Counted from the stretch's first letter, positions 6,501-58,100 are shown. The stretch: DNA of 64,000 nucleotides from the human T2T-CHM13v2.0 reference genome, Homo sapiens (GCA_009914755.4 CP086569.2:32416001-32480000); one strand, 5' to 3'. Notes: generated by a model from the sequence alone, not told the origin. Numbers and translations are program-made.

Positions 6501-7091
6501 TGGAATTGAATCGATTGGAATGAAATCGCATAGAATGGAGTGGAATCAAATGGAATTGAATCGAAAGGAAAGGAAGCGAATGGACTGAAATGAAATGGAA
6601 TGGAATTGAATGGAAAGTAATGCAATGGAATAGAATGGAACGAAATTTCACGGAATGGAATCAAACTGAATGGAATCAAATCAATGGAATCAAATCAAAT
6701 GGAATGGAAAGGAATTGAATGGAGTAGATGGGATTGGATGGGATTGGAATGAAATGTACTGGAAAGGACTCGAATTTCATGAAACGGAATGGAATGAATA
6801 GGAAAGGAATGGACTCGAATGGAATGGAATGTCATGGGATGGCATCAAACGGAATGGCATCAAATGGAATGGAATCGAATGCAATGGAATGCTATGGAAT
6901 GGAATGGAATGCATTGGAATGGAATGTCCTCTAATGGAATGGATTCGAGTGGAATGGAATCGAATATAATGGAGTCGAATGAAATGGAATTGAAAGGAAT
7001 GGGATCGAATACAATGGAATATACTGGAATGTAACGTAATGAACTCGAATGTAATTGACTGGAATGGAATGTACATGAATGGAATGTAATC
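3549..7091. repeat. HOR unit 2 (3543 bp), subtype 'B'
   Basis: Landmark at 3549. 109-aa minus ORF 5272-5601 (SISYYSIPFNSIPDD variant) differs from the flanking units 1 and 3. Private variant 'GIYTN' at 3771. Confidence 0.85.
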
Positions 7092-10000: not shown

Positions 10001-10639
10001 AAATTAAATGGACTCGAATGGAATGGAAACGAAAGGAATGTCATCGAATGGAATTGAATCGATTGGAATGAAATCGCATAGAATGGAGTGGAATCAAATG
10101 GAATTGAATCGAAAGGAAAGGAAGCGAATGGACTGAAATGAAATGGAATGGAATTGAATGGAAAGTAATGCAATGGAATAGAATGGAACGAAATTTCACG
10201 GAATGGAATCAAACTGAATGGAATCAAATCAATGGAATCAAATCAAATGGAATGGAAAGGAATTGAATGGAGTAGATGGGATTGGATGGGATTGGAATGA
10301 AATGTACTGGAAAGGACTCGAATTTCATGAAACGGAATGGAATGAATTGGAAAGGAATGGACTCGAATGGAATGGAATGTCATGGGATGGCATCAAATGG
10401 AATGGCATCAAATGGAATGGAATCGAATGCAATGGAATGCTATGGAATGGAATGGAATGCATTGGAATGGAATGTCCTCTAATGGAATGGATTCGAGTGG
10501 AATGGAATTGAATATAATGGAGTCGAATGAAATGGAATTGAAAGGAATGGGATCGAATACAATGGAATATACTGGAATGTAACGTAATGAACTCGAATGT
10601 AATTGACTGGAATGGAATGTACATGAATGGAATGTAATC
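7092..10639. repeat. HOR unit 3 (3548 bp), subtype 'A', near-identical to unit 1
   Basis: Landmark at 7092. ORF set matches unit 1 (122-aa ORF 8781-9149, 208-aa ORF 9110-9736). Confidence 0.85.
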
Positions 10640-13285
10640 GAATGGAAAGTAATCCAATGGAATAGAATCTAATGCAATAAAATCGACTCAGATAGAGTAG
10701 AATGTAATGGAATGGAGTGCAGTGCAATGGAATGGAATGGAATGGAATGCAATGGAATGGAATGGAATGGAATGGAATGGAATGGAATGGGATGGAATGG
10801 TATGGAATGGATAGTAATGGACTGGAGTGAAATGGACTGGAAAGGAATGGACTCAAATTGAAAGGGCTCGAAAGGAATGGAGTCAAATGGAATGGTCTGG
10901 AATGGAATGAACACGAATGTAATGCAACCCAATAGAATGGAATCGAATGGCATGGAATATAAAGAAATGGAATCGAAGAGAATGGAAACAAATGGAATGG
11001 AATTGAATGGAATGGAATTGAATGGAATGGGAACGAATGGAGTGAAATTGTATGCAGTAGAAGAGAATAGAATGGAATGCAAGCGAAAGGAAAGGAATGG
11101 ATTGGAATGGAATGGAATTCATTGGAATGGAAGGGAATGTAGTGTAATGGACAGGCCTGGAATAAAGTGGAATGCTACGGTCTCGAATGGAATAAAAATG
11201 TATGGAATGGAATGCAATGAAACGGAATCGAATGTCATAGAATGTAATGGAATGCAAAAAAATGGAATCCAAAATCATTGACTGGAAAGGCTGGGTGTCG
11301 AAAGGAATTGACTCCAATGGAATGGAATCGAATGGAATGGAAGTGAATAGAATCGAACTAAATCGAATGGAATGGAATTGATAGGAACGGAATGGAAAGG
11401 AATGCAATGATTTGGCATGGAATGGAATCGAATGGCATCGAATGGAATGGAATGGAATGCAATGGAATGGAATGTATTAGAATGTAATGAACTTTAATGG
11501 AATGTACTCGAATGGATTCGACTGGAATGGAATGTTCTGGAAGTGAATGGACTCCAATGGAATGGATTCAAAAGGAATGGAATCGTACGGAATGGAATCT
11601 AATGGAATGGAATTAAATGGAAATGAATCAAATTGAATAGCACGGAATTGAATTGAATGGAATGGAATGCAATGGAATCTAATGAAACGGAAAGGAAAGG
11701 AATGGAATGGAATGGAATGGGCTGGAATGGAAAGGAATCGAAACGAATGGAATGGAATCGAACTGAAGAGACTGGAATGGAATGCACTGGAATGGAAGGG
11801 AGTGTAATGGAAGGTTCTCGAAAAAAATGGAATCGAATGGAATGGAATTGAATGGAACGGAATAGAGTCGAATGGAATTGAATGGAATGGAATGGACTAG
11901 AGTGAAATGGAATCGAACCACAAGGAATGGACAGGAATAGAATGGTCTCGAATTGAATGGAATCGTATGGAATGGCATCAAACGGAATGGAATGGACAGC
12001 CACGGAATGGAATGCACTCGAATGCAATGGAGTCGAAACTAACGGACTGGAATAGAATGGACTCGATTGGTACGGACTCCAATGGAATGGAATCGAATGG
12101 AAGGGAATCGAACGGAATGGACTCGAAGGGAAAAGACTGCAATGGAAAGGTCTCGAATGGAATGGAAATTAATGGAATGGAATGGAATCGAATGAAATGG
12201 AGTCAAAAGGAATGGAATCGAATGGCAAGAAATCGAATGTAATGGAATCGCAAGGAATTGATGTGAACGGAACGGAATGGAATGGAATCCAAAGGAATGG
12301 AATAGAATGGAATGGAATCGAATGGAAAGGACTCGAATGGAAATCACTCGAATAGAATGCAATTTAATAAAATAGGATCAAATGTAATAGAATGGAATGG
12401 AAAGGAATCGAAACGGAAGGAATGGAGACAGATGGAATGGAATGGAACAGAGAGCAATGGTATAGAATGGAATGGAATCATCTGGAATGGAATTGAATGG
12501 AATGGAATAATATGAAATGGAATGGAATGGAATGGAATGGAATGCCCTTGAATTAAATGGACTGGACTCGAACAGAGTGGAATGGAAAGTGTTGAGATAG
12601 AATGGAATGGACTCCTTTGGAATGGTCTAGTATGCAATGCAATCGACTGGCAGGGAATCAAAAGGAATGTAATCGAATGGATTGGACTGGAATGCAATGG
12701 ACTCGAATAGATTGGAAACGGAATGCAAAGGAATGGAATGGAATAGTATGGAATGCAATGGAAGGGAATGGAGTGGAATAGACTAGAGTGGAATGGAATG
12801 GACTGGAAAGCAATGGACTGGAATGGAACTTTCTTGGATGGATTGGAATCAAACGGAATGGAATGCAATGCAATCAAATGGCATGGAATAAAATAGAATG
12901 AAAGAGAATCAAATGGAATTGAATCGAATGGAATCGAATGGATTGGAAAGGAATAGAATGGAATGGAATGGAATTGACTCAAATGGAATGGACTAGAATG
13001 GAATGGATTCGAATGGAATGGAATGTCATGGAATGGCATCAAATGGAATGGCATCAAATGGAATGGAATCGAATGCAATGGAATGCTATGGAATGGAATG
13101 GAATGCATTGGAATGGAATGTCCTCTAATGGAATGGATTCGAGTGGAATGGAATTGAATATAATGGAGTCGAATGAAATGGAATTGAAAGGAATGGGATC
13201 GAATACAATGGAATATACTGGAATGTAACGTAATGAACTCGAATGTAATTGACTGGAATGGAATGTACATGAATGGAATGTAATC
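10640..13285. repeat. Truncated HOR unit 4 (2646 bp) carrying a ~0.9 kb internal deletion
   Basis: Landmark at 10640 and again at 13286. In the translated track, the segment MDWKGIEWNGMELTQMEWTRMEWIRME (normal unit offset ~2300) is joined directly to WNVMEWHQMEW (normal offset ~3280), giving a 96-aa ORF at 12938-13228 and a 319-aa minus ORF at 12344-13303. Confidence 0.85.
13005..13025. other. Deletion junction of truncated unit 4
   Basis: 'ggattcgaatggaa|tggaatgtcatggaatggcatc': sequence normally at unit offset ~2375 is joined to sequence normally at ~3285, across a 'tcgaatggaa(t)gg' microhomology. The nearby 'gtcatggaatggc' has a g>a change relative to 'gtcatgggatggc' in full units. Confidence 0.75.
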
Positions 13286-16200
13286 GAATGGAAAGTAATC
13301 CAATGGAATAGAATCTAATGCAATAAAATCGACTCAGATAGAGTAGAATGTAATGGAATGGAGTGCAGTGCAATGGAATGGAATGGAATGGAATGCAATG
13401 GAATGGAATGGAATGGAATGGAATGGAATGGAATGGGATGGAATGGTATGGAATGGATAGTAATGGACTGGAGTGAAATGGACTGGAAAGGAATGGACTC
13501 AAATTGAAAGGGCTCGAAAGGAATGGAGTCAAATGGAATGGTCTGGAATGGAATGAACACGAATGTAATGCAATCCAATAGAATGGAATCGAATGGCATG
13601 GAATATAAAGAAATGGAATCGAAGAGAATGGAAACAAATGGAATGGAATTGAATGGAATGGAATTGAATGGAATGGGAACGAATGGAGTGAAATTGTATG
13701 CAGTAGAAGAGAATAGAATGGAATGCAAGCGAAAGGAAAGGAATGGATTGGAATGGAATGGAATTCATTGGAATGGAAGGGAATGTAGTGTAATGGACAG
13801 GCCTGGAATAAAGTGGAATGCTACGGTCTCGAATGGAATAAAAATGTATGGAATGGAATGCAATGAAACGGAATCGAATGTCATAGAATGTAATGGAATG
13901 CAAAAAAATGGAATCCAAAATCATTGAATGGAAAGGCTGGGTGTCGAAAGGAATTGACTCCAATGGAATGGAATCGAATGGAATGGAAGTGAATAGAATC
14001 GAACTAAATCGTATGGAATGGAATTGATAGGAACGGAATGGAAAGGAATGCAATGATTTGGCATGGAATGGAATCGAATGGCATCGAATGGAATGGAATG
14101 GAATGCAATGGAATGGAATGTATTAGAATGGAATGAACTTTAATGGAATGTACTCGAATGGATTCGACTGGAATGGAATGTTCTGGAAGTGAATGGACTC
14201 CAATGGAATGGATTCAAAAGGAATGGAATCCTACGGAATGGAATCTAATGGAATGGAATTAAATGGAAATGAATCAAATTGAATAGCACGGAATTGAATT
14301 GAATGGAATGGAATGCAATGGAATCTAATGAAACGGAAAGGAAAGGAATGGAATGGAATGGAATGGGCTGGAATGGAAAGGAATCGAAACGAATGGAATG
14401 GAATCGAACTGAAGAGACTGGAATGGAATGCACTGGAATGGAAGGGAGTGTAATGGAAGGTTGTCGAAAAAAATGGAATCGAATGGAATAGAATTGAATG
14501 GAACCGAATAGAGTCGAATGGAATTGAATGGAATGGAATGGACTAGAGTGAAATGGAATCGAACCACAAGGAATGGACAGGAATAGAATGGTCTCGAATT
14601 GAATGGAATCGTATGGAATGGCATCAAACGGAATGGAATGGACAGCCACGGAATGGAATGCACTCGAATGCAATGGAGTCGAAACAAATGGACTGGAATA
14701 GAATGGACTCGACTGGTACGGACTCCAATGGAATGGAATCGAATGGAAGGGAATCGAACGGAAGGGAATCGAACGGAATGGACTCGAAGGGAAAAGACTG
14801 CAATGGAAAGGTCTCGAATGGAATGGAAATTAATGGAATGGAATGGAATCGAATGAAATGGAGTCAAAAGGAATGGAATCGAATGGCAAGAAATCGAATG
14901 TAATGGAATCGCCAGGAATTGATGTGAACGGAACGGAATGGAATGGAATCCAAAGGAATGGAATAGAATGGAATGGAATCGAATGGAAAGGACTCGAATG
15001 GAAATCACTCGAATAGAATGCAATTTAATAAAATAGGATCAAATGTAATGGAATGGAATGGAAAGGAATCGAAACGAAAGGAATGGAGACAGATGGAATG
15101 GAATGGAACAGAGAGCAATGGTATAGAATGGAATGGAATCATCTGGAATGGAATTGAATGGAATGGAATAATATGAAATGGAATGGAATGGAATGGAATG
15201 GAATGCCCTTGAATTAAATGGACTGGAATGGAATGGACTCAAACAGAGTGGAATGGAAAGTGTGGAGATAGAATGGAATGAACTCCTTTGGAATGGTGTA
15301 GTATGCAATGCAATCGACTGGCAGGGAATCAAAAGGAATGTAATCGAATGGATTGGACTGGAATGCAATGGACTCGAATAGATTGGAAACGGAATGCAAA
15401 GGAATGGAATGGAATAGTATGGAATGCAATGGAAGGGAATGGAGTGGAATAGACTAGAGTGGAATGGAATGGACTGGAAAGCAATGGACTGAAATGGAAC
15501 TTTCTTGGATGGACTGGAATCAAACGGAATGGAATGCAATGCAATCAAATGGCATGGAATAAAATAGAATGAAAGAGAATCAAATGGAATTGAATCGAAT
15601 GGAATCGAATGGATTGGAAATGAATAGAATGGAATGGAATGGAATTGACTCAAATGGAATGGACTAGAATGGAATGGATTCGAATGGAAGGCAAAGGAAT
15701 GGAATCTATTGGAATGGACTGTAATGGAATGGAATGGAAGGGATTGGAATGGACTCGAATGGAATGGACTGCAATAGAAAGGATTCGAATGGAATGAAAA
15801 AGAATTGAATGGAATAGAACAGAATGGAATCAAATCGAATGAAATGGAATGGAATAGAAAGGAATGGAATGAAATGGAATGGAAAGGATTCGAATGGAAT
15901 GCAATCGAATGGAATGGAATCGAACGGAATGGAATAAAATGGAAGAAAACTGGCAAGAAATGGAATCGAAATGAATGGAGTGTTATGGAACGGACTCAAA
16001 AGGAATTGAATGTAATAGAATGGAGTGGAGTGGACTCGAATATAATGGACTGGAATGGAATGAAATCACATGGAATGGGAACGAATGGAATGGAATGGAA
16101 AGGAATGGAATCGAATGGAAAGGAATCGAATGGAAGGGAATGAAATTGAATCAACACGAATGGAAGGGAATAGAATAGACTGTAATGGAATGGACTCGAA

Positions 16201-38218: not shown

Positions 38219-41200
38219 GAATGGAAAGTAATCCAATGGAATAGAATCTAATGCAATAAAATCGACTCAGATAGAGTAGAATGTAATGGAATGGAGTGCA
38301 GTGCAATGGAATGGAATGGAATGGAATGCAATGGAATGGAATGGAATGGAATGGAATGGAATGGAATGGAATGGAATGGGATGGAATGGTATGGAATGGA
38401 TAGTAATAGACTGGAGTGAAATGGACTGGAAAGGAATGGACTCAAATTGAAAGGGCTCGAAAGGAATGGAGTCAAATGGAATGGTCTGGAATGGAATGAA
38501 CACGAATGTAATGCAACCCAATAGAATGGAATCGAATGGCATGGAATATAAAGAAATGGAATCGAAGAGAATGGAAACAAATGGAATGGAATTGAATGGA
38601 ATGGAATTGAATGGAATGGGAACGAATGGAGTGAAATTGTATGCAGTAGAAGAGAATAGAATGGAATGCAAGCGAAAGGAAAGGAATGGATTGGAATGGA
38701 ATGGAATTCATTGGAATGGAAGGGAATGTAGTGTAATGGACAGGCCTGGAATAAAGTGGAATGCTACGGTCTCGAATGGAATAAAAATGTATGGAATGGA
38801 ATGCAATGAAACGGAATCGAATGTCATAGAATGTAATGGAATGCAAAAAAATGGAATCCAAAATCATTGACTGGAAAGGCTGGGTGTCGAAAGGAATTGA
38901 CTCCAATGGAATGGAATCGAATGGAATGGAAGTGAATAGAATCGAACTAAATCGAATGGAATGGAATTGATAGGAACGGAATGGAAAGGAATGCAATGAT
39001 TTGGCATGGAATGGAATCGAATGGCATCGAATGGAATGGAATGGAATGCAATGGAATGGAATGTATTAGAATGTAATGAACTTTAATGGAATGTACTCGA
39101 ATGGATTCGACTGGAATGGAATGTTCTGGAAGTGAATGGACTCCAATGGAATGGATTCAAAAGGAATGGAATCGTACGGAATGGAATCTAATGGAATGGA
39201 ATTAAATGGAAATGAATCAAATTGAATAGCACGGAATTGAATTGAATGGAATGGAATGCAATGGAATCTAATGAAACGGAAAGGAAAGGAATGGAATGGA
39301 ATGGAATGGGCTGGAATGGAAAGGAATCGAAACGAATGGAATGGAATCGAACTGAAGAGACTGGAATGGAATGCACTGGAATGGAAGGGAGTGTAATGGA
39401 AGGTTCTCGAAAAAAATGGAATCGAATGGAATGGAATTGAATGGAACGGAATAGAGTCGAATGGAATTGAATGGAATGGAATGGACTAGAGTGAAATGGA
39501 ATCGAACCACAAGGAATGGACAGGAATAGAATGGTCTCGAATTGAATGGAATCGTATGGAATGGCATCAAACGGAATGGAATGGACAGCCACGGAATGGA
39601 ATGCACTCGAATGCAATGGAGTCGAAACAAATGGACTGGAATAGAATGGACTCGACTGGTACGGACTCCAATGGAATGGAATCGAATGGAAGGGAATCGA
39701 ACGGAAGGGAATCGAACGGAATGGACTCGAAGGGAAAAGACTGCAATGGAAAGGTCTCGAATGGAATGGAAATTAATGGAATGGAATGGAATCGAATGAA
39801 ATGGAGTCAAAAGGAATAGAATCGAATGGCAAGAAATCGAATGTAATGGAATCGCCAGGAATTGATGTGAACGGAACGGAATGGAATGGAATCCAAAGGA
39901 ATGGAATAGAATGGAATGGAATCGAATGGAAAGGACTCGAATGGAAATCACTCGAATAGAATGCAATTTAATAAAATAGGATCAAATGTAATGGAATGGA
40001 ATGGAAAGGAATCGAAACGAAAGGAATGGAGACAGATGGAATGGAATGGAACAGAGAGCAATGGTATAGAATGGAATGGAATCATCTGGAATGGAATTGA
40101 ATGGAATGGAATAATATGAAATGGAATGGAATGGAATGGAATGGAATGCCCTTGAATTAAATGGACTGGAATGGAATGGACTCAAACAGAGTGGAATGGA
40201 AAGTGTGGAGATAGAATGGAATGAACTCCTTTGGAATGGTGTAGTATGCAATGCAATCGACTGGCAGGGAATCAAAAGGAATGTAATCGAATGGATTGGA
40301 CTGGAATGCAATGGACTCGAATAGATTGGAAACGGAATGCAAAGGAATGGAATGGAATAGTATGGAATGCAATGGAAGGGAATGGAGTGGAATAGACTAG
40401 AGTGGAATGGAATGGACTGGAAAGCAATGGACTGGAATGGAACTTTCTTGGATGGACTGGAACCAAACGGAATGGAATGCAATGCAATCAAATGGCATGG
40501 AATAAAATAGAATGAAAGAGAATCAAATGGAATTGAATCGAATGGAATCGAATGGATTGGAAAGGAATAGAATGGAATGGAATGGAATTGACTCAAATGG
40601 AATGGACTAGAATGGAATGGATTCGAATGGAAGGCAAAGGAATGGAATCTATTGGAATGGACTGTAATGGAATGGAATGGAAGGGATTGGAATGGACTCG
40701 AATGGAATGGACTGCAATAGAAAGGATTCGAATGGAATGAAAAAGAATTGAATGGAATAGAACAGAATGGAATCAAATCGAATGAAATGGAATGGAATAG
40801 AAAGGAATGGAATGAAATGGAATGGAAAGGATTCGAATGGAATGCAATCGAATGGAATGGAATCGAACGGAATGGAATAAAATGGAAGAAAACTGGCAAG
40901 AAATGGAATCGAAATGAATGGAGTGTTATGGAACGGACTCAAAAGGAATTGAATGTAATAGAATGGAGTGGAGTGGACTCGAATATAATGGACTGGAATG
41001 GAATGAAATCACATGGAATGGGAACGAATGGAATGGAATGGAAAGGAATGGAATCGAATGGAAAGGAATCGAATGGAAGGGAATGAAATTGAATCAACAG
41101 GAATGGAAGGGAATAGAATAGACTGTAATGGAATGGACTCGAATAGAATGGACACGAATGCTCAAATTAAATGGACTCGAATGGAATGGAAACGAAAGGA

Positions 41201-41802
41201 ATGTCATCGAATGGAATTGAATCGATTGGAATGAAATCGCATAGAATGGAGTGGAATCAAATGGAATTGAATCGAAAGGAAAGGAAGCGAATGGACTGAA
41301 ATGAAATGGAATGGAATTGAATGGAAAGTAATGCAATGGAATAGAATGGAACGAAATTTCACGGAATGGAATCAAACTGAATGGAATCAAATCAATGGAA
41401 TCAAATCAAATGGAATGGAAAGGAATTGAATGGAGTAGATGGGATTGGATGGGATTGGAATGAAATGTACTGGAAAGGACTCGAATTTCATGAAACGGAA
41501 TGGAATGAATTGGAACGGAATGGACTCGAATGGAATGGAATGTCATGGGATTGCATCAAATGGAATGGCATCAAATGGAATGGAATCGAATGCAATGGAA
41601 TGCTATGGAATGGAATGGAATGCATTGGAATGGAATGTCCTCTAATGGAATGGATTCGAGTGGAATGGAATTGAATATAATGGAGTCGAATGAAATGGAA
41701 TTGAAAGGAATGGGATCGAATACAATGGAATATACTGGAATGTAACGTAATGAACTCGAATGTAATTGACTGGAATGGAATGTACATGAATGGAATGTAA
41801 TC
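38219..41802. repeat. HOR unit 12 (3584 bp), subtype 'D' with private variants
   Basis: Landmark at 38219. RLVPVHP, SKGIECN and a 165-aa ORF as in units 8 and 10. Private changes: TQMEW, MSWDCIKWNG, MGLHQMEW. Confidence 0.82.
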
Positions 41803-45345: not shown

Positions 45346-48300
45346 GAATGGAAAGTAATCCAATGGAATAGAATCTAATGCAATAAAACCGACTCAGATA
45401 GAGTAGAATGTAATGGAATGGAGTGCAGTGCAATGAAATGGAATGGAATTGAATGCAATGGAATGGAATGGAATGGAATGGAATGGAATGGAATGGAATT
45501 GGATGGAATGGTATGGAATGGATAGTAATGGACTGGAGTGAAATGGACTGGAAAGGAATGGACTCAAATTGAAAGGTCTCGAAAGGAATGGAGTCAAATG
45601 GAATGGTCTGGAATGGAATGAACACGAATGTAATGCAATCCAATAGAATGGAATCGAATGGCATGGAATATAAAGAAATGGAATCGAAGAGAATGGAAAC
45701 AAATGGAATGGAATTGAATGGAATGGAATTGAATGGAATGGGAACGAATGGAGTGAAATTGTATGCAGTAGAAGGGAATAGAATGGAATGCAAGCGAAAG
45801 GAAAGGAATGGATTGGAATGGAATGGAATTCATTGGAATGGAAGGGAATGTAGTGTAATGGACAGGCCTGGAATAAAGTGGAATGCTACGGTCTCGAATG
45901 GAATAAAAATGTATGGAATGGAATGCAATGAAACGGAATCGAATGTCATAGAATGTAATGGAATGCAAAAAAATGGAATCCAAAATCATTGACTGGAAAG
46001 GCTGGGTGTCGAAAGGAATTGACTCCAATGGAATGGAATCGAATGGAATGGAAGTGAATAGAATCGAACTAAATCGAATGGAATGGAATTGATAGGAACG
46101 GAATGGAAAGGAATGCAATGATTTGGCATGGAATGGAATCGAATGGCATCGAATGGAATGGAATGGAATGCAATGGAATGGAATGTATTAGAATGGAATG
46201 AACTTTAATGGAATGTACTCGAATGGATTCGACTGGAATGGAATGTTCTGGAAGTGAATGGACTCCAATGGAATGGATTCAAAAGGAATGGAATCGTACG
46301 GAATGGAATCTAATGGAATGGAATTAAATGGAAATGAATCAAATTGAATAGCACGGAATTGAATTGAATGGAATGGAATGCAATGGAATCTAATGAAACG
46401 GAAAGGAAAGGAATGGAATGGAATGGAATGGGCTGGAATGGAAAGGAATCGAAACGAATGGAATGGAATCGAACTGAAGAGACTGGAATGGAATGCACTG
46501 GAATGGAAGGGAGTGTAATGGAAGGTTCTCGAAAAAAATGGAATCGAATGGAATGCAATTGAATGGAACGGAGTAGAGCCGAATGCAATTGAATGGAATG
46601 GAATGGACTAGAGTGAAATGGAATCGAACCACAAGGAATGGACAGGAATAGAATGGTCTCGAATTGAATGGAATCGTATGGAATGGCATCAAACGGAATG
46701 GAATGGACAGCCACGGAATGGAATGCACTCGAATGCAATGGAGTCGAATCTAATGGACTGGAATAGAATGGACTCGACTGGTACGGACTCCAATGGAATG
46801 GAATCGAATGGAAGGGAATCGAACGGAAGGGAATCGAATGGAATGGACTCGAAGGGAAAAGACTGTAATGGAAAGGTCTCGAATGGAATGGAAATTAATG
46901 GAATGGAATGGAATCGAATGAAATGGAGGCAAAAGGAATGGAATCGAATGGCAAGAAATCGAATGTAATGGAATCGCAAGGAATTGATGTGAACGGAACG
47001 GAATGGAATGGAATCCAAAGGAATGGAATAGAATGGAATGGAATCGAATGGAAAGGACTCGAATGGAAATCACTCGAATAGAATGCAATTTAATAAAATA
47101 GGATCAAATGTAATGGAATGGAATGGAAAGGAATCGAAACGAAAGGAATGGAGACAGATGGAATGGAATGGAACAGAGAGCAATGGTATAGAACGGAATG
47201 GAATCATCTGGAATGGAATTGAATGGAATGGAATAATATGAAATGGAAAGGAATGAAATGGAATGCCCTTGAATTAAATGGACTACAATGGGAATGGACT
47301 CGAACAGAGTGGAATGGAAAGTGTTGAAATAGAATGGAATTGACTCCTTTGGAATGGTGTAGTATGCAATGCAATCGACTGGCAGGGAATCAAAAGGAAT
47401 GTAATCGAATGGATTGGACTGGAATGCAATGGACTCGAATAGATTGGAAACGGAATGCAAAGGAATGGAATGGAATAGTATGGAATGGAATGGAAAGGAA
47501 TGGAGTGGAATAGACTAGAGTGGAATGGAATGGACTGGAAAGCAATGGACTGGAATGGAACTTTCTTGAATGGACTGGAATCAAACGGAATGGAATGCAA
47601 TGCAATCAAATGGCATGGAATAAAATAGAATGAAAGAGAATCAAATGGAATTGAATCGAATGGAATCGAATGGATTGGAAAGGAATAGAATGGAATGGAA
47701 TGGAATGGACTCAAATGGAATGTACTAGAATGGAATGGATTCGAATGGAAGGCAAAGGAATGGAATCTATTGGAATGGACTGTAATGGAATGGAATGGAA
47801 GGGATTGGAATGGACTCGAATGGAATGGACTGCAATAGAAAGGATTCGAATGGAATGAAAAAGAATTGAATGGAATAGAACAGAATGGAATCAAATCGAA
47901 TGAAATGGAATGGAATAGAAAGGAATGGAATGAAATGGAATGGAAAGGATTCGAATGGAATGCAATCGAATGGAATGGAATCGAACGGAATGGAATAAAA
48001 TGGAAGAAAACTGGCAAGAAATGGAATCGAAGTGAATGGAGTGTTATGGAACGGACTCAAAAGGAATTGAATGTAATAGAATGGAGTGGAGTGGACTCGA
48101 ATATAATGGACTGGAATGGAATGAAATCACATGGAATGGGAACGAATGGAATGGAATGGAAAGGAATGGAATCGAATGGAAAGGAATCGAATGGAAGGGA
48201 ATGAAATTGAATCAACAGGAATGGAAGGGAATAGAATAGACGGTAATGGAATGGACTCGAATAGAATGGACACGAATGCTCAAATTAAATGGACTCGAAT

Positions 48301-48920
48301 GGAATGGAAACGAAAGGAATGTCATCGAATGGAATTGAATCGATTGGAATGAAATCGCATAGAATGGAGTGGAATCAAATGGAATTGAATCGAAAGGAAA
48401 GGAAGCGAATGGACTGAAATGAAATGGAATGGAATTGAATGGAAAGTAACGCAATGGAATAGAATGGAACGAAATTTCACGGAATGGAATCAAACTGAAT
48501 GGAATCAAATCAATGGAATCAAATCAAATGGAATGGAAAGGAATTGAATGGAGTAGATGGGATTGGATGGGATTGGAATGAAATGTACTGGAAAGGACTC
48601 GAATTTCATGAAACGGAATGGAATGAATTGGAAAGGAATGGACTCGAATGGAATGGAATGTCATGGGATGGCATCAAATGGAATGGCATCAAATGGAATG
48701 GAATCGAATGCAATGGAATGCTATGGAATGGAATGGAATGCATTGGAATGGAATGTCCTCTAATGGAATGGATTCGAGTGGAATGGAATTGAATATAATG
48801 GAGTCGAATGAAATGGAATTGAAAGGAATGGGATCGAATACAATGGAATATACTGGAATGTAACGTAATGAACTCGAATGTAATTGACTGGAATGGAATG
48901 TACATGAATGGAATGTAATC
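45346..48920. repeat. HOR unit 14 (3575 bp), diverged variant
   Basis: Landmark at 45346. Several private changes: NVMQSNRM, QLHSALLRSIQLHS, and an unusual 109-aa minus ORF at 46689-47018 in another frame (indel). Confidence 0.8.
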
Positions 48921-51591
48921 GAATGGAAAGTAATCCAATGGAATAGAATCTAATGCAATAAAATCGACTCAGATAGAGTAGAATGTAATGGAATGGAGTG
49001 CAGTGCAATGGAATGGAATGGAATGGAATGCAATGGAATGGAATGGAATGGAATGGAATGGAATGGAATGGAATGGAATGGGATGGAATGGTATGGAATG
49101 GATAGTAATGGACTGGAGTGAAATGGACTGGAAAGGAATGGACTCAAATTGAAAGGGCTCGAAAGGAATGGAGTCAAATGGAATGGTCTGGAATGGAATG
49201 AACACGAATGTAATGCAACCCAATAGAATGGAATCGAATGGCATGGAATATAAAGAAATGGAATCGAAGAGAATGGAAACAAATGGAATGGAATTGAATG
49301 GAATGGAATTGAATGGAATGGGAACGAATGGAGTGAAATTGTATGCAGTAGAAGAGAATAGAATGGAATGCAAGCGAAAGGAAAGGAATGGATTGGAATG
49401 GAATGGAATTCATTGGAATGGAAGGGAATGTAGTGTAATGGACAGGCCTGGAATAAAGTGGAATGCTACGGTCTCGAATGGAATAAAAATGTATGGAATG
49501 GAATGCAATGAAACGGAATCGAATGTCATAGAATGTAATGGAATGCAAAAAAATGGAATCCAAAATCATTGACTGGAAAGGCTGGGTGTCGAAAGGAATT
49601 GACTCCAATGGAATGGAATCGAATGGAATGGAAGTGAATAGAATCGAACTAAATCGAATGGAATGGAATTGATAGGAACGGAATGGAAAGGAATGCAATG
49701 ATTTGGCATGGAATGGAATCGAATGGCATCGAATGGAATGGAATGGAATGCAATGGAATGGAATGTATTAGAATGGAATGAACTTTAATGGAATGTACTC
49801 GAATGGATTCGACTGGAATGGAATGTTCTGGAAGTGAATGGACTCCAATGGAATGGATTCAAAAGGAATGGAATCGTACGGAATGGAATCTAATGGAATG
49901 GAATTAAATGGAAATGAATCAAATTGAATAGCACGGAATTGAATTGAATGGAATGGAATGCAATGGAATCTAATGAAACGGAAAGGAAAGGAATGGAATG
50001 GAATGGAATGGGCTGGAATGGAAAGGAATCGAAACGAATGGAATGGAATCGAACTGAAGAGACTGGAATGGAATGCACTGGAATGGAAGGGAGTGTAATG
50101 GAAGGTTCTCGAAAAAAATGGAATCGAATGGAATGGAATTGAATGGAACGGAATAGAGTCGAATGGAATTGAATGGAATGGAATGGACTAGAGTGAAATG
50201 GAATCGAACCACAAGGAATGGACAGGAATAGAATGGTCTCGAATTGAATGGAATCGTATGGAATGGCATCAAACGGAATGGAATGGACAGCCACGGAATG
50301 GAATGCACTCGAATGCAATGGAGTCGAAACTAACGGACTGGAATAGAATGGACTCGATTGGTACGGACTCCAATGGAATGGAATCGAATGGAAGGGAATC
50401 GAACGGAAGGGAATCGAACGGAATGGACTCGAAGGGAAAAGACTGCAATGGAAAGGTCTCGAATGGAATGGAAATTAATGGAATGGAATGGAATCGAATG
50501 AAATGGAGTCAAAAGGAATGGAATCGAATGGCAAGAAATCGAATGTAATGGAATCGCAAGGAATTGATGTGAACGGAACGGAATGGAATGGAATCCAAAG
50601 GAATGGAATAGAATGGAATGGAATCGAATGGAAAGGACTCGAATGGAAATCACTCGAATAGAATGCAATTTAATAAAATAGGATCAAATGTAATAGAATG
50701 GAATGGAAAGGAATCGAAACGGAAGGAATGGAGACAGATGGAATGGAATGGAACAGAGAGCAATGGTATAGAATGGAATGGAATCATCTGGAATGGAATT
50801 GAATGGAATGGAATAATATGAAATGGAATGGAATGGAATGGAATGGAATGCCCTTGAATTAAATGGACTGGACTCGAACAGAGTGGAATGGAAAGTGTTG
50901 AGATAGAATGGAATGGACTCCTTTGGAATGGTCTAGTATGCAATGCAATCGACTGGCAGGGAATCAAAAGGAATGTAATCGAATGGATTGGACTGGAATG
51001 CAATGGACTCGAATAGATTGGAAACGGAATGCAAAGGAATGGAATGGAATAGTATGGAATGCAATGGAAGGGAATGGAGTGGAATAGACTAGAGTGGAAT
51101 GGAATGGACTGGAAAGCAATGGACTGGAATGGAACTTTCTTGGATGGATGGGAATCAAACGGAATGGAATGCAATGCAATCAAATGGCATGGAATAAAAT
51201 AGAATGAAAGAGAATCAAATGGAATTGAATCGAATGGAATCGAATGGATTGGAAAGGAATAGAATGGAATGGAATGGAATTGACTCAAATGGAATGGACT
51301 AGAATGGAATGGATTCGAATGGAATGGAATGTCATGGAATGGCATCAAATGGAATGGCATCAAATGGAATGGAATCGAATGCAATGGAATGCTATGGAAT
51401 GGAATGGAATGCATTGGAATGGAATGTCCTCTAATGGAATGGATTCGAGTGGAATGGAATTGAATATAATGGAGTCGAATGAAATGGAATTGAAAGGAAT
51501 GGGATCGAATACAATGGAATATACTGGAATGTAACGTAATGAACTCGAATGTAATTGACTGGAATGGAATGTACATGAATGGAATGTAATC
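48921..51591. repeat. Truncated HOR unit 15 (2671 bp) with the same ~0.9 kb deletion as unit 4
   Basis: Landmark at 48921 and next at 51592. The 96-aa fusion ORF at 51244-51534 and the 319-aa minus ORF at 50650-51609 are nearly identical to those of unit 4. Shared private markers: SIGTDS, NVIEWNG, RLIPIHPRKFH, FYWIALHSC. Confidence 0.85.
51312..51332. other. Deletion junction of truncated unit 15 (identical to the unit 4 junction)
   Basis: Same junction string and same g>a SNP ('gtcatggaatggcatc') as at 13005-13025. Confidence 0.75.
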
Positions 51592-54500
51592 GAATGGAAA
51601 GTAATCCAATGGAATAGAATCTAATGCAATAAAATCGACTCAGATAGAGTAGAATGTAATGGAATGGAGTGCAGTGCAATGGAATGGAATGGAATGGAAT
51701 GCAATGGAATGGAATGGAATGGAATGGAATGGAATGGAATGGAATGGAATGGGATGGAATGGTATGGAATGGATAGTAATGGACTGGAGTGAAATGGACT
51801 GGAAAGGAATGGACTCAAATTGAAAGGGCTCGAAAGGAATGGAGTCAAATGGAATGGTCTGGAATGGAATGAACACGAATGTAATGCAATCCAATAGAAT
51901 GGAATCGAATGGCATGGAATATAAAGAAATGGAATCGAAGAGAATGGAAACAAATGGAATGGAATTGAATGGAATGGAATTGAATGGAATGTGAACGAAT
52001 GGAGTGAAATTGTATGCAGTAGAAGAGAATAGAATGGAATGCAAGCGAAAGGAAAGGAATGGATTGGAATGGAATGGAATTCATTGGAATGGAAGGGAAT
52101 GTAGTGTAATGGACAGGCCTGGAATAAAGTGGAATGCTACGGTCTCGAATGGAATAAAAATGTATGGAATGGAATGCAATGAAACGGAATCGAATGTCAT
52201 AGAATGTAATGGAATGCAAAGAAATGGAATCCAAAATCATTGACTGGAAAGGCTGGGTGTCGAAAGGAATTGACTCCAATGGAATGGAATCGAATGGAAT
52301 GGAAGTGAATAGAATCGAACTAAATCGAATGGAATGGAATTGATAGGAACGGAATGGAAAGGAATGCAATGATTTGGCATGGAATGGAATCGAATGGCAT
52401 CGAATGGAATGGAATGGAATGCAATGGAATGGAATGTATTAGAATGTAATGAACTTTAATGGAATGTACTCGAATGGATTCGACTGGAATGGAATGTTCT
52501 GGAAGTGAATGGACTCCAATGGAATGGATTCAAAAGGAATGGAATCGTACGGAATGGAATCTAATGGAATGGAATTAAATGGAAATGAATCAAATTGAAT
52601 AGCACGGAATTGAATTGAATGGAATGGAATGCAATGGAATCTAATGAAACGGAAAGGAAAGGAATGGAATGGAATGGAATGGACTGGAATGGAAAGGAAT
52701 CGAAACGAATGGAATGGAATCGAACTGAAGAGACTGGAATGGAATGCACTGGAATGGAAGGGAGTGTAATGGAAGGTTGTCGAAAAAAATGGAATCGAAT
52801 GGAATGGAATTGAATGGAACGGAATAGAGTCGAATGGAATTGAATGGAATGGAATGGACTAGAGTGAAATGGAATCGAACCTCAAGGAATGGACAGGAAT
52901 AGAATGGTCTCGAATTGAATGGAATCGTATGGAATGGCATCAAACGGAATGGAATGGACAGCCACGGAATGGAATGCACTCGAATGCAATGGAGTCGAAA
53001 CTAATGGACTGGAATAGAATGGACTCGACTGGTACGGACTCCAATGGAATGGAATCGAATGGAAGGGAATCGAACGGAAGGGAATCGAACGGAATGGACT
53101 CGAAGGGAAAAGACTGCAATAGAAAGGTCTCGAATGGAATGGAAATTAATGGAATGGAATGGAATCGAATGAAATGGAGTCAAAAGGAATGGAATCGAAT
53201 GGCAAGAAATGGAATGTAATGGAATCGCCAGGAATTGATGTGAACGGAGCGGAATGGAATGGAATCCAAAGGAATGGAATAGAATGGAATGGAATCGAAT
53301 GGAAAGGACTCGAATGGAAATCACTCGAATAGAATGCAATTTAATAAAATAGGATCAAATGTAATGGAATGGAATGGAAAGGAATCGAAACGAAAGGAAT
53401 GGAGACAGATGGAATGGAATGGAACAGAGAGCAATGGTATAGAATGGAATGGAATCATCTGGAATGGAATTGAATGGAATGGAATGGAATGCCCTTGAAT
53501 TAAATGGACTGGAATGGAATGGACTCAAACAGAGTGGAATGGAAAGTGTTGAGATAGAATGGAATGAACTCCTTTGGAATGGTCTAGTAGGCAATGCAAT
53601 CGACTGGCAGGGAATCAAAAGGAATGTAATCGAATGGATTGGACTGGAATGCAATGGACTCGAATAGATTGGAAACGGAATGCAAAGGAATGGAATGGAA
53701 TAGTATGGAATGGAATGGAAAGGAATGGAGTGGAATAGACTAGAGTGGAATGGAATGGACTGGAAAGCAATGGACTGGAATGGAACTTTCTTGAATGGAC
53801 TGGAATCAAACGGAATGGAATGCAATGCAATCAAATGGCATGGAATAAAATAGAATGAAAGAGAATCAAATGGAATTGAATCGAATGGAATCGAATGGAT
53901 TGGAAAGGAATAGAACGGAATGGAATGGAATTGACTCAAATGGAATGGACTAGAATGGAATGGATTCGAATGGAAGACAAAGGAATGGAATCTATTGGAA
54001 TGGACTGTAATGGAATGGAATGGAAGGGATTGGAATGGACTCGAATGGAATGGACTGCAATAGAAAGGATTCGAATGGAATGAAAAAGAATTGAATGGAA
54101 TAGAACAGAATGGAATCAAATCGAATGAAATGGAATGGAATAGAAAGGAATGGAATGAAATGGAATGAAAAGGATTCGAATGGAATGCAATCGAATGGAA
54201 TGGAATCGAACGGAATGGAATAAAATGGAAGAAAACTGGCAATAAATGGAATCGAAATGAATGGAGTGTTATGGAACGGACTCAAAAGGAATTGAATGTA
54301 ATAGAATGGAGTGGAGTGGACTCGAATATAATGGACTGGAATGGAATGAAATCACATGGAATGGGAACGAATGGAATGGAATGGAAAGGAATGGAATCGA
54401 ATGGAAAGGAATCGAATGGAGGGAATGAAATTGAATCAACAGGAATGGAAGGGAATAGAATAGACGGTAATGGAATGGACTCGAATAGAATGGACACGAA

Positions 54501-55144: not shown

Positions 55145-58100
55145 GAATGGAAAGTAATCCAATGGAATAGAATCTAATGCAATAAAATCGACTCAGATAG
55201 AGTAGAATGTAATGGAATGGAGTGTTGTGCAATGGAATGGAATGGAATGGAATGCAATGGAATGGAATGGAATGGAATGGGATGGAATGGTATGGAATGG
55301 ATAGTAATGGACTGGAGTGAAATGGACTGGAAAGGAATGGACTCAAATTGAAAGGGCACGAAAGGAATGGAGTCAAATGGAATGGTCTGGAATGGAATGA
55401 ACACGAATGTAATGCAACCCAATAGAATGGAATCGAATGGCATGGAATATAAAGAAATGGAATCGAAGAGAATGGAAACAAATGGAATGGAATTGAATGG
55501 AATGTGAACGAATGGAGTGAAATTGTATGCAGTAGAAGAGAATAGAATGGAATGCAAGCGAAAGGAAAGGAATGGATTGGAATGGAATGGAATTCATTGG
55601 AATGGAAGGGAATGTAGTGTAATGGACAGGCCTGGAATAAAGTGGAATGCTACGGTCTCGAATGGAATAAAAATGTATGGAATGGAATGCAATGAAACGG
55701 AATCGAATGTCATAGAATGTAATGGAATGCAACAAAATGGAATCCAAAATCATTGACTGGAAAGGCTGGGTGTCGAAAGGAATTGACTCCAATGGAATGG
55801 AATCGAATGGAATGGAAGTGAATAGAATCGAACTAAATCGAATGGAATGGAATTGATAGGAACGGAATGGAAAAGAATGCAATGATTTGGCATGGAATGG
55901 AATCGAATGGCATCGAATGGAATGGAATGGAATGCAATGGAATGGAATGTATTAGAATGGAATGAACTTTAATGGAATGTACTCGAATGGATTCGACTGG
56001 AATGGAATGTTCTGGAAGTGAATGGACTCCAATGGAATGGATTCAAAAGGAATGGAATCGTACGGAATGGAATCTAATGGAATGGAATTAAATGGAAATG
56101 AATCAAATTGAATAGCACGGAATTGAATTGAATGGAATGGAATGCAATGGAATCTAATGAAACGGAAAGGAAAGGAATGGAATGGAATGGAATGGGCTGG
56201 AATGGAAAGGAATCGAAACGAATGGAATGGAATCGAACTGAAGAGACTGGAATGGAATGCACTGGAATGGAAGGGAGTGTAATGGAAGGTTCTCGAAAAA
56301 AATGGAATCGAATGGAATGGAATTGAATGGAACGGAATAGAGTCGAATGGAATTGAATGGAATGGAATGGACTAGAGTGAAATGGAATCGAACCACAAGG
56401 AATGGAGAGGAATAGAATGGTCTCGAATTGAATGGAATCGTATGGAATGGCATCAAACGGAATGGAATGGACAGCCACGGAATGGAATGCACTCGAATGC
56501 AATGGAGTCGAAACTAATGGACTGGAATAGAATGGACTCGACTGGTACGGACTCCAATGGAATGGAATCGAATGGAAGGGAATCGAACGGAATGGACTCG
56601 AAGGGAAAAGACTGCAATGGAAAGGTCTCGAATGGAATGGAAATTAATGGGATGGAATGGAATCGAATGAAATGGAGTCAAAAGGAATGGAATCGAATGG
56701 CAAGAAATCGAATGTAATGGAATCGCAAGGAATTGATGTGAACGGAACGGAATGGAATGGAATCCAAAGGAATGGAATAGAATGGAATGGAATCGAATGG
56801 AAAGGACTCGAATGGAAATCACTCGAATAGAATGCAATTTAATAAAATAGGATCAAATGTAATAGAATGGAATGGAAAGGAATCGAAACGGAAGGAATGG
56901 AGACAGATGGAATGGAATGGAACAGAGAGCAATGGTATAGAATGGAATGGAATCATCTGGAATGGAATTGAATGGAATGGAATAATATGAAATGGAATGG
57001 AATGGAATGGAATGGAATGCCCTTGAATTAAATGGACTGGAATGGAATGGACTCGAACAGAGTGGAATGGAAAGTGTTGACATAGAATGGAATGGACTCC
57101 TTTGGAATGGTGTACTATGCAATGCAATCGACTGGCAGGGAATCAAAAGGAATGTAATCGAATGGATTGGACTGGAATGCAATGGACTCGAATAGATTGC
57201 AAACGGAATGCAAAGGAATGGAATGGAATAGTATGGAATGGAATGGAAAGGAATGGAGTGGAATAGACTAGAGTGGAATGGAATGGACTGGAAAGCAATG
57301 GACTGGAATGGAACTTTCTTGAATGGACTGGAATCAAACGGAATGGAATGCAATGCAATCAAAAGGCATGGAATAAAATAGAATGAAAGAGAATCAAATG
57401 GAATTGAATCGAATGGAATCGAATGGATTGGAAAGGAATAGAATGGAATGGAATGGAATGGACTAGAATGGAATGGATTCGAATGGAAGGCAAAGGAATG
57501 GAATCTATTGGAATGGACTGTAATGGAATGGAATGGAAGGGATTGGAATGGACTCGAATGGAATGGACTGCAATAGAAAGGATTCGAATGGAATGAAAAA
57601 GAATTGAATGGAATAGAACAGAATGGAATCAAATCGAATGAAATGGAATGGAATAGAAAGGAATGGAATGAAATGGAATGGAAAGGATTCGAATGGAATG
57701 CAATCGAAAGGAATGGAATCGAACGGAATGGAATAAAATGGAAGAAAACTGGCAAGAAAGGGAATCGATATGAATGGAGTGTTATGGAACGGACTCAAAA
57801 GGAATTGAATGTAATAGAATGGAGTGGAGTGGACTCGAATATAATGGACTGGAATGGAATGAAATCACATGGAATGGGAACGAATGGAAAGGAATGGAAA
57901 GGAATGGAATCGAATGGAAAGGAATCGAATGGAAGGGAATGAAATTGAATCAACAGGAATGGAAGGGAATAGAATAGACGGTAATGGAATGGACTCGAAT
58001 AGAATGGACACGAATGCTGAAATTGAATGGACTCGAATGGAATGGAAACGAAAGGAATGTCATCGAATGGAATTGAATCGATTGGAATGAAATCGCATAG

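What the first reader, a model, noticed from the sequence alone, without database searches (positions are those of the whole stretch)
48921..51591. Second truncated unit, 38.3 kb downstream, with the identical junction and shared private variants
Unit 15 has the same fusion ORF (96 aa, 51244-51534, versus 12938-13228) and the same junction string and g>a SNP. It also shares private markers with unit 4 but with no other unit: SIGTDS, NVIEWNG, RLIPIHPRKFH, FYWIALHSC. Two independent identical deletions are implausible, so the variant unit was copied by unequal crossing-over or a large intra-array duplication. It is a natural marker for array structure and phasing.
Basis: seen in the sequence. 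Interest (0 to 1): 0.55.

Follow-up and report, generated by a model that had tools for sequence, protein, structure and literature searches.

The report
Copied deletion variant of Y satellite
Two shortened repeat units in a stretch of the human Y-chromosome DYZ1 satellite carry the same 903-base deletion because one is a recent copy of the other, moved about 38 kb by a short patch-like exchange; this is ordinary satellite-DNA behaviour.

Summary
The window is 18 complete units plus one partial unit of the human Y satellite DYZ1 (HSat3A6). Units are about 3.55 kb and built from GGAAT pentamers.

Confirmed:
- Units 4 (10640-13285, 2646 bp) and 15 (48921-51591, 2671 bp) are the only short units.
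- Both lack the same 903 bp, with identical breakpoints inside a 10-bp microhomology (TCGAATGGAA).
- They differ by 2 substitutions and 2 pentamer-multiple indels. Unit 4 differs from every other unit by 16-31 substitutions.
- A single origin is well supported.

Not confirmed:
- Only one of the four claimed "private" peptide markers is private (SIGTDS, a C>T at 12067/50358).
- The junction-side g>a also occurs in units 13 and 17 and is common in outside DYZ1 copies.
- The 96-aa "fusion ORF" exists but is a by-product of stop-poor pentamer sequence.
- A large duplication is not supported. Near-identity covers only about 3.2-3.5 kb (at most 10170-13675 against 48451-51991). Flanking units differ by 33-38 substitutions, and no other unit pair at the 11-unit offset is close.

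The best reading is a short-tract, gene-conversion-like transfer, or equivalently two nearby unequal exchanges. A 38-kb periodicity cannot be tested in this window and the evidence here does not favour it. Low interest.

The parts
48921..51591 (+). Short DYZ1 unit 15 (2671 bp), the finding itself. It is a DYZ1 unit lacking 903 bp.
   Evidence: The alignment to unit 4 and to the full-length units comes. The HaeIII fragment 49445-52116 is 2671 bp.
10640..13285 (+). Short DYZ1 unit 4 (2646 bp), the sister copy.
   Evidence: It differs from unit 15 by 2 substitutions and 2 indels. It has the same 903-bp gap against all 16 full-length units.
51315..51324 (+). Deletion junction in unit 15. This is the 10-bp microhomology TCGAATGGAA within which the breakpoint lies. 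The left-type diagnostic T is at 51314 and right-type sequence starts at 51325.
13009..13018 (+). Deletion junction in unit 4: the same 10-bp microhomology in an identical context.
48451..51991 (+). Maximum extent of the tract nearly identical to 10170-13675. The minimum extent supported by rare shared alleles is 48634-51890.
   Evidence: The first flanking differences are at 48450 and 51992. Rare shared flank alleles are at 48634 and 51890.
10170..13675 (+). Partner tract around unit 4 (minimum 10353-13574).
50358..50358 (+). The only strictly private substitution shared by units 4 and 15 (T where the other 16 complete units have C). Its partner is at 12067. It creates the SIGTDS marker.
   Evidence: The T-allele 25-mer is absent from all 51 external DYZ1 loci, while the C-allele 25-mer is present in 19 of them.
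40623..41525 (+). Example, in full-length unit 12, of the 903-bp segment missing from units 4 and 15. It is flanked by the imperfect direct repeat GGAATGGA[T/C]TCGAATGGAA (18/19 identical).
   Evidence: The sites of published DYZ1 primers C, E and F lie in or at the edge of this segment and are missing from units 4 and 15.
51244..51534 (+). 96-aa ORF spanning the junction. It is a by-product of stop-poor (GGAAT)n sequence and not a gene.
   Evidence: There are 16 ORFs of at least 60 aa in this 2.67-kb unit alone. Pfam gives no hit. The deletion length, 903 = 3 x 301, happens to keep the reading frame.

Best explanation
The window is human Y-chromosome DYZ1 satellite (HSat3A6).

Step 1, the deletion. 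A 903-bp segment arose once inside a single 3.55-kb unit, by misaligned exchange or replication slippage between two imperfect direct repeats (GGAATGGA[T/C]TCGAATGGAA, 18/19 identical) that lie 903 bp apart. The breakpoint is in the shared 10 bp, TCGAATGGAA. This left a 2.65-kb unit.

Step 2, the copying. A segment of only about 3.2-3.5 kb was later copied to a second register 11 units (38.3 kb) away. The segment comprises the short unit plus a few hundred bp on each side. The copying was a short-tract, non-reciprocal exchange between misaligned sister chromatids: gene conversion, or formally equivalent, two closely spaced unequal exchanges. It was not a duplication of a 38-kb block. The event is about as recent as the youngest unit duplications in the window.

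Step 3, the remaining differences. Four of the five differences inside the tract involve alleles or length classes that already exist in other units. This fits patchy repair or later small conversions and pentamer slippage.

Shown here: the identity of the satellite, the identical breakpoint, the sister relationship of the two units, the short extent of the shared tract and the unrelated flanks. Inferred: the molecular mechanisms of both the deletion and the transfer, the direction of transfer and the timing.

The short unit has no indicated function. It is a neutral structural variant.
For: Identity as DYZ1:
- The basic unit is the pentamer GAATG, with a period of 3543-3584 bp.
- There is one HaeIII site per unit.
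- All six published DYZ1 primers (PMC3925983) map once per unit in the expected order.
- The HSat3A6 example 24-mer from PMC4022460 occurs twice per unit.
- External contigs, including some labelled human gut metagenome, are 97-99% identical over up to a full unit.

Single origin:
- The junction is identical.
- There are 2 substitutions between units 4 and 15, against 16-31 between unit 4 and all others.
- There is one private shared SNV.
- About 1130 alternative repeat pairs per unit are at least as good as the one used.

Short tract:
- Between 10170 and 13675 there are only 2 substitutions and 3 indels.
- Outside that tract differences are dense.
- Rare alleles are shared just outside the unit on both sides, at 10353/48634 and 13574/51890, and are followed by the first differences at 10169 and 13676.
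- Flanking units differ by 38 and 33 substitutions. The other offset-11 pairs differ by 17-46.

Recency: the youngest unit pairs differ by 1 substitution (8/10), 3 (9/11) and 5 (7/9).

Precedent: intra-array gene conversion in Yq12 has been inferred from father-son transmissions (10.64898/2026.06.03.729890). Unequal exchange is the accepted driver of Yq12 evolution (10.1101/2022.12.01.518724; Hallast supplement).
Against: - Large parts of the unit have little diversity among copies. The tract ends rest on few informative sites, and the flank support is modest.
- Both head pentamer runs inside the tract (10751/49032 and 13397/51703) differ by the same 10 bp between the two loci. Each short unit matches its own downstream neighbour there. 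That needs extra events: patchy repair, local homogenisation or recurrent slippage.
- Gene conversion across a 903-bp heterology is less common than across point differences.
- Only 64 kb is visible. A third copy outside the window could be the real donor of both.
- No read-level validation of the assembly was possible.
Confidence: 0.6

Rival explanations
1. A multi-unit block containing the short unit was duplicated by a single unequal sister-chromatid exchange, about 38 kb or smaller and later pushed apart. The flanks have since been overwritten by further exchanges and amplifications.
For: - Unequal exchange is the accepted main process in Yq12.
- Units 6-12, between the two short units, are a recent amplification of a 7.1-kb A/B dimer. 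The original spacing could therefore have been smaller.
- Unit 13, two units left of unit 15, is most similar to units 1-3, which lie left of unit 4: 16-17 substitutions against at least 26 to all other units.
Against: - No offset-11 unit pair other than 4/15 is close; they differ by 17-46 substitutions.
- The immediately adjacent units differ by 33-38 substitutions, while the short units differ by 2. The flanks would have to be replaced on both sides within 0.3-0.5 kb of the unit while the unit stayed nearly untouched, and that needs at least two extra events.
- Units 3 and 13 are about six times more diverged per bp than units 4 and 15 (16/3543 against 2/2646), and unit 13 is not adjacent to unit 15.
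- The tract covers one short unit plus about 0.6-0.9 kb, which is not a whole number of periods, so it is not what a single in-register unequal exchange leaves.
Confidence: 0.27
2. The same 903-bp deletion happened twice independently, at a slippage hotspot formed by the 18/19 direct repeat.
For: The breakpoint lies in a direct repeat, which is the kind of site at which deletions can recur.
Against: - About 1130 equally good or better repeat pairs exist per unit.
- The two units are nearest relatives on both sides of the deletion and share a private SNV.
- No full-length unit in the window or in 51 external loci carries that SNV.
- The junction string is absent from three large public collections in which the undeleted breakpoint was found 51 times.
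Confidence: 0.03
3. One of the two copies is an assembly artefact: a false duplication or mis-join in a highly repetitive array.
For: DYZ1 is among the hardest regions to assemble. No reads were available here.
Against: The two copies differ by 2 substitutions and 2-3 indels and sit in clearly different flanking units. Reads of about 10-20 kb would place them unambiguously. A collapse or false duplication would normally give identical copies with identical flanks.
Confidence: 0.05

Closest known systems
Human DYZ1 satellite (HSat3A6) of Yq12: 3.56-kb HaeIII unit built from the TTCCA/GGAAT pentamer
   Same: The pentamer base, the roughly 3.55-kb period and the single HaeIII site per unit all match. 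The published primer sites and the subfamily-specific 24-mer are all present. Unit-length heterogeneity is already reported: DYZ1 units range from 1,165 to 3,608 bp and 95% are longer than 3 kb (Hallast et al. supplement).
   Different: The literature I could search does not describe this particular 903-bp deletion (about nt 783-1686 of the 3564-bp reference unit) or the 2.65-kb unit class.
[quoted passage not shown] 2023)
   Same: It is of similar length and is partly DYZ1-derived.
   Different: That repeat is a chimera: 23% of the unit resembles DYZ18 and 77% resembles DYZ1. It forms its own tandem array. The units here are pure DYZ1 with one internal deletion, and they occur singly between full-length units.
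Spread of marked units (for example Alu insertions) within Yq12 arrays by unequal exchange or gene conversion, and de novo intra-array gene conversion seen in pedigrees
   Same: A unit carrying a unique structural marker appears at more than one place in the array, and homogenisation mechanisms are invoked to explain it.
   Different: Here the marker is a deletion, and only a tract of about 3.3 kb is shared, with no co-amplified block. The pedigree events described are SNV-scale conversions.

Membership tests
Human DYZ1 / HSat3A6 satellite | Built from diverged GGAAT/CATTC (TTCCA) pentamers | tested here: met
   TRF finds a period-5 GAATG array over 61-63999.
Human DYZ1 / HSat3A6 satellite | Higher-order unit of about 3.56 kb with one HaeIII (GGCC) site per unit | tested here: met
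   Unit lengths are 3499-3584 bp. There are 19 GGCC sites, giving fragments of 3513-3584 bp plus 2646 and 2671 bp. The literature values are 3,564 and 3,569 bp.
Human DYZ1 / HSat3A6 satellite | Published DYZ1-specific primer sites present in the reference order | tested here: met
   Primers B-F match with 0-2 mismatches and primer A with 2 mismatches, once per unit and in the expected order. The window + strand is the complement of the reference TTCCA strand.
Human DYZ1 / HSat3A6 satellite | HSat3A6 subfamily-specific 24-mer | tested here: met
   TCGTTTCGATTCCTTTCCATTCCA (PMC4022460) gives 37 matches with at most 1 mismatch, about two per unit, on the - strand.
Human DYZ1 / HSat3A6 satellite | Location on Yq12 of a human male | not testable with these tools
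   No human reference was available. Indirect support: units 97-99% identical turn up in metagenome contigs, including some labelled human gut metagenome, and as contaminants in bacterial assemblies.
2.7-kbp Yq11/Yq12 transition repeat | About 23% of the unit is derived from DYZ18, and the units form their own tandem array | tested here: not met
   Units 4 and 15 align end to end with DYZ1 units apart from the 903-bp gap, and each is flanked by full-length DYZ1 units.
Block (segmental) duplication by a single unequal sister-chromatid exchange | Contiguous multi-unit block, flanks included, present twice at similar divergence | tested here: not met
   Flanking units differ by 33-38 substitutions against 2 for the short units. 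The other offset-11 pairs differ by 17-46.
Gene-conversion-like short-tract transfer | A short tract of near-identity bounded on both sides by sequence of different ancestry | tested here: met
   The tract is 10170-13675 against 48451-51991, with 2 substitutions. Dense differences lie outside it, and rare shared alleles lie near both ends.
Gene-conversion-like short-tract transfer | Non-reciprocal: the donor is unchanged and unit number is conserved at the recipient | not testable with these tools
   This needs the ancestral haplotype or related Y chromosomes.

The most novel reading that the evidence does not exclude
The 2.65-kb deletion units might not be a local pair. They could be part of a regular long-range (about 38 kb, 11-unit) super-periodicity or a lineage-specific sub-array of DYZ1. 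That would give a usable landmark system for phasing and dating rearrangements in Yq12.
Probability: 0.05. Interest if true: 0.35.

Novelty: new member of a known kind. Interest (0 to 1): 0.15.

Why it matters
The practical value is small. The 903-bp deletion junction and the private SNV give unique k-mers inside an otherwise monotonous array, so they can anchor reads, check assemblies and trace exchange events in DYZ1. The pair is also a clean small example that short-tract, conversion-like transfer operates in Yq12 heterochromatin alongside block duplication. It does not change what is known about satellite evolution, and nothing points to a function.

Tried and rejected
- Coding meaning of the 'fusion ORF': rejected. 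There are 16 ORFs of at least 60 aa in 2.67 kb on both strands. The 96-aa ORF has no Pfam hit. The 319-aa antisense ORF gives only sub-threshold low-complexity matches, Extensin_1 at 41.8 bits against a cut-off of 105 and Pentapeptide_4 at 23.3 against 38.
- Three of the four peptide markers and the g>a SNP as private markers: rejected.
- Looking for the junction in other people's DNA. An exact 42-nt junction string was scanned in metagenome contigs, genome contigs and viral contigs and gave 0 hits. The control string for the undeleted left breakpoint gave 43 metagenome stretches and 8 bacterial or archaeal assembly contigs, and 0 viral contigs. None of those 51 loci spans the junction at high identity. 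Loci holding several consecutive units have full-length spacing only: 3539-3562 bp in L002, 3559 bp in L036 and about 3483-3485 bp in L008/L009. This suggests the variant is a minority form. It is weak evidence, though, because short-read assemblies collapse satellites to a consensus.
- Literature search for a described 2.6-2.7 kb DYZ1 deletion variant. Only the unrelated 2.7-kbp DYZ18/DYZ1 chimeric repeat and a general statement on DYZ1 unit-length range turned up.
- Deciding donor against recipient: not resolved. In alignment columns 1479-2400 the short-unit lineage shares rare alleles and a 10-bp deletion with units 17 and 18, which lie near unit 15, hinting at an origin on that side. But unit 4 is the more unit-18-like of the two, sharing the 15-bp deletion.

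Full report
**What the window is.**
Tandem Repeats Finder reports one period-5 (GAATG) array over essentially the whole window. Distances between repeated 24-mers peak at 3543-3584 bp, with minor peaks at 2646 and 2671 bp. Anchoring on the first 200 bases of the finding gives unit starts at 1, 3549, 7092, 10640, 13286, 16860, 20439, 23983, 27557, 31101, 34675, 38219, 41803, 45346, 48921, 51592, 55145, 58644 and 62202. That is 18 complete units. Sixteen are 3499-3584 bp long; unit 4 is 2646 bp and unit 15 is 2671 bp.

The satellite is human DYZ1 (HSat3A6), on this evidence:
- There is one HaeIII site per unit, giving fragments of 3513-3584 bp plus 2646 and 2671 bp.
- All six DYZ1 primers published in PMC3925983 map once per unit in the reference order. 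The window + strand is the complement of the reference TTCCA strand.
- The HSat3A6 example 24-mer of PMC4022460 occurs about twice per unit.
- Published descriptions match: a unit of about 3.5-3.6 kb derived from the pentamer CATTC, with commonest HaeIII fragments of 3,564 and 3,569 bp.
- Contigs pulled from public metagenomes, some labelled human gut metagenome, are 97-99% identical to a window unit over up to 3.58 kb.

**Checking the observation.**
Units 4 and 15 align with 2644 of 2646 positions identical, plus one 10-bp and one 15-bp indel. Against every full-length unit both show the same 903-bp gap at the same place. The junction sequences are identical for at least 60 bp on each side. 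A 42-nt junction string occurs exactly twice in the window and never in shuffled sequence. The 96-aa ORFs at 12938-13228 and 51244-51534 exist and are identical.

The marker claims mostly fail:
- SIGTDS is confined to units 4 and 15.
- NVIEWNG also occurs in unit 17, and RLIPIHPRKFH also occurs in unit 18.
- FYWIALHSC lies in units 5 and 16, the downstream neighbours of the short units, and also in units 14 and 18. It is not in units 4 or 15.
- In a multiple alignment of all units, the only substitution shared by units 4 and 15 and absent from the other 16 complete units is C>T at 12067/50358.
- The g>a beside the junction (13032/51338) is also in units 13 and 17. Its A-allele 25-mer is present in 25 of 51 external DYZ1 loci, so it is a widespread polymorphism.

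**Anatomy of the deletion.**
In full-length units the deleted segment is bounded by an imperfect direct repeat. The left copy reads GGAATGGAT-TCGAATGGAA-GGCAAAGG and the right copy reads GGAATGGAC-TCGAATGGAA-TGGAATGTC. That is 8 matching bases, one mismatch, then 10 exact bases. The short units keep the left-type T and the right-type continuation, so the breakpoint lies inside the 10-bp TCGAATGGAA, at 13009-18 and 51315-24.

In reference coordinates this removes roughly nt 783-1686 of the 3564-bp HaeIII unit. The sites of primers C, E and F are lost, while B and D are kept. The structure is what misaligned exchange or replication slippage between short direct repeats would produce; that mechanism is inferred. 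A single full-length unit contains about 1130 repeat pairs at least as good as this one, so two independent hits on the same pair are unlikely a priori.

**The ORF.**
The sequence is stop-poor because (GGAAT)n reads G-M-E-W-N without stop codons. There are 16 ORFs of at least 60 aa on both strands within this one 2.67-kb unit. Pfam gives no hit for the 96-aa ORF and only sub-threshold low-complexity matches for the 319-aa antisense ORF. The ORF spans the junction only because 903 is divisible by three. It is not evidence of a gene.

**How far the shared sequence extends.**
I aligned 7 kb on each side of the two units.
- Between 10170 and 13675 (partner 48451-51991) there are 2 substitutions and 3 indels of 10, 15 and 10 bp.
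- Outside that tract, differences are dense to the right. To the left there are first a few and then many.
- Site-by-site classification shows one rare shared allele in each flank. These are 10353/48634 (also in unit 2) and 13574/51890 (also in units 14 and 18).
- They are followed by the first differences, at 10169/48450 and 13676/51992.

The shared tract is therefore about 3.2-3.5 kb: the short unit plus about 290-470 bp upstream and about 290-390 bp downstream. One caveat applies. Diversity among units is very uneven. The flank segments lie in low-diversity parts, so the ends rest on few informative sites. A conservative upper bound is about 4.7 kb, because units 3 and 14 already show 14 substitutions in alignment columns 1800-2100, and units 5 and 16 show 4 in columns 600-900.

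**No 38-kb duplication.**

| Unit pair | Substitutions | Note |
|---|---|---|
| 4 / 15 | 2 | the two short units |
| 4 / any other unit | 16-31 | |
| 3 / 14 | 38 | upstream neighbours |
| 5 / 16 | 33 | downstream neighbours |
| 1 / 12 | 21 | same 11-unit offset |
| 2 / 13 | 17 | same 11-unit offset |
| 6 / 17 | 40 | same 11-unit offset |
| 7 / 18 | 46 | same 11-unit offset |
| 8 / 10 | 1 | youngest duplicates |
| 9 / 11 | 3 | youngest duplicates |
| 7 / 9 | 5 | youngest duplicates |

A recent block duplication would make all offset-11 pairs about as similar as units 4 and 15. They are not. The youngest duplicates belong to a 7.1-kb A/B dimer amplified across units 6-12, so the 4/15 event is about as recent as the youngest events in the window.

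**Most likely mechanism.**
A single-origin deletion unit was copied into a second register by a short-tract, non-reciprocal exchange between misaligned sister chromatids. Gene conversion and two close unequal exchanges cannot be told apart here.

Four of the five differences inside the tract involve alleles or length classes already present in other units:
- the T/G site at 11485/49776, which is split 9:9 among units;
- the 15-bp indel at 12099, shared with units 17 and 18;
- the two 10-bp indels in a hypervariable pentamer run.

Only 12844/51150 is a singleton. This fits patchy heteroduplex repair or later micro-conversions and slippage, but it is an inference.

One awkward point remains. In that hypervariable run each short unit matches its own downstream neighbour, unit 4 with unit 5 and unit 15 with unit 16. 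This needs local homogenisation, restoration or recurrent slippage.

The literature supports both classes of process in Yq12. Unequal exchange is described, and gene-conversion-like de novo events in father-son transmissions are described.

**Rival explanations.**
- Block duplication with later erasure of the flanks is possible. Units 6-12 are a later amplification, and unit 13 resembles units 1-3. But it needs at least two further precisely placed events, and units 3 and 13 are about six times more diverged per bp than units 4 and 15.
- Independent recurrence is very unlikely, given the sister relationship on both sides of the deletion, the private SNV and the many alternative repeat pairs.
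- An assembly artefact cannot be excluded without reads. It is disfavoured because the copies differ from each other and have distinct flanks.

**Beyond the window.**
The junction 42-mer is absent from the metagenome, prokaryote-genome and viral collections. The control 42-mer for the undeleted left breakpoint is found in 43 metagenome stretches and 8 bacterial or archaeal assembly contigs. None of those loci spans the junction. Loci that hold several consecutive units, such as L002 and L036, have full-length spacing only. The private T allele is absent from all 51 loci, while the C-allele 25-mer is present in 19 of them.

This suggests the deletion form is a minority or local variant. The evidence is weak, because short-read assemblies collapse satellites to a consensus. 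Hallast et al. report DYZ1 units of 1,165-3,608 bp, with 95% above 3 kb, so short DYZ1 units as a class are already known. Their '2.7-kbp repeat' is a different, DYZ18-containing array.

**Verdict.**
The details of the 'private markers' and the proposed large duplication are not supported. The proposed 38-kb periodicity cannot be tested here and is not favoured. This is an ordinary product of known satellite dynamics in a known satellite. It is useful as a local landmark, but of low novelty and interest.

Noticed in passing
window 16860-41802 (units 6-12): Units alternate between an A type (3574-3584 bp: units 6, 8, 10, 12) and a B type (3544 bp: units 7, 9, 11). There are only 1-9 substitutions within a type and 14-20 between types. 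This is a locally amplified 7.1-kb dimeric supra-unit, which also shows as the 7118-bp peak in 24-mer distances.
   Followed up: partly
L044-L051 (genome contigs), e.g. L044 = BMRF01000076.1 'Actinomadura cremea JCM 3308', L051 = CAYVXY010000078.1: Eight contigs deposited in bacterial or archaeal genome assemblies carry the DYZ1 breakpoint 42-mer. Several are DYZ1 at about 98-99% identity (98.9% over 3.2-3.5 kb for L044 and L051); others give only lower-identity best alignments. This looks like human male DNA contamination of those assemblies.
   Followed up: partly
window about 10751, 13397, 49032, 51703 (alignment columns 111-145 of every unit): A hypervariable pentamer run shows five length classes among the 19 units. 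Adjacent or related units often share a class (units 4, 5, 8, 10; units 12, 15, 16, 18; units 6, 14). Each short unit matches its downstream neighbour here and not its sister copy.
   Followed up: partly
window 46556-46586 and 47249-47365 (unit 14): Unit 14 carries tight clusters of substitutions found in no other unit of the window, for example four singletons within 31 bp. It looks like a patch imported from a more diverged DYZ1 copy elsewhere.
   Followed up: no
window 13032 / 51338 and the primer B site of every unit: The 'g>a' allele is the minority in this window (4 of 18 units). Its A-allele 25-mer is nevertheless present in 25 of 51 external DYZ1 loci, while published primer B carries the G allele. 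Both alleles are therefore widespread in DYZ1.
   Followed up: yes
window 12389-12843, 56856-56891, 60406-60868 (units 4 and 15 against units 17 and 18): In alignment columns 1479-2400 or so, the short-unit lineage shares several rare alleles and a 10-bp deletion with units 17 and/or 18. Elsewhere it resembles A-type units. The short unit is itself a mosaic of unit lineages.
   Followed up: partly
L009 (BNJU01001848.1, 52-kb metagenome contig), about 6400-11500: More diverged DYZ1-like units, about 92% identical to unit 12 and spaced 3485 bp apart, adjoin sequence with many GGCC sites. This may be an array boundary in another individual's Y chromosome.
   Followed up: no
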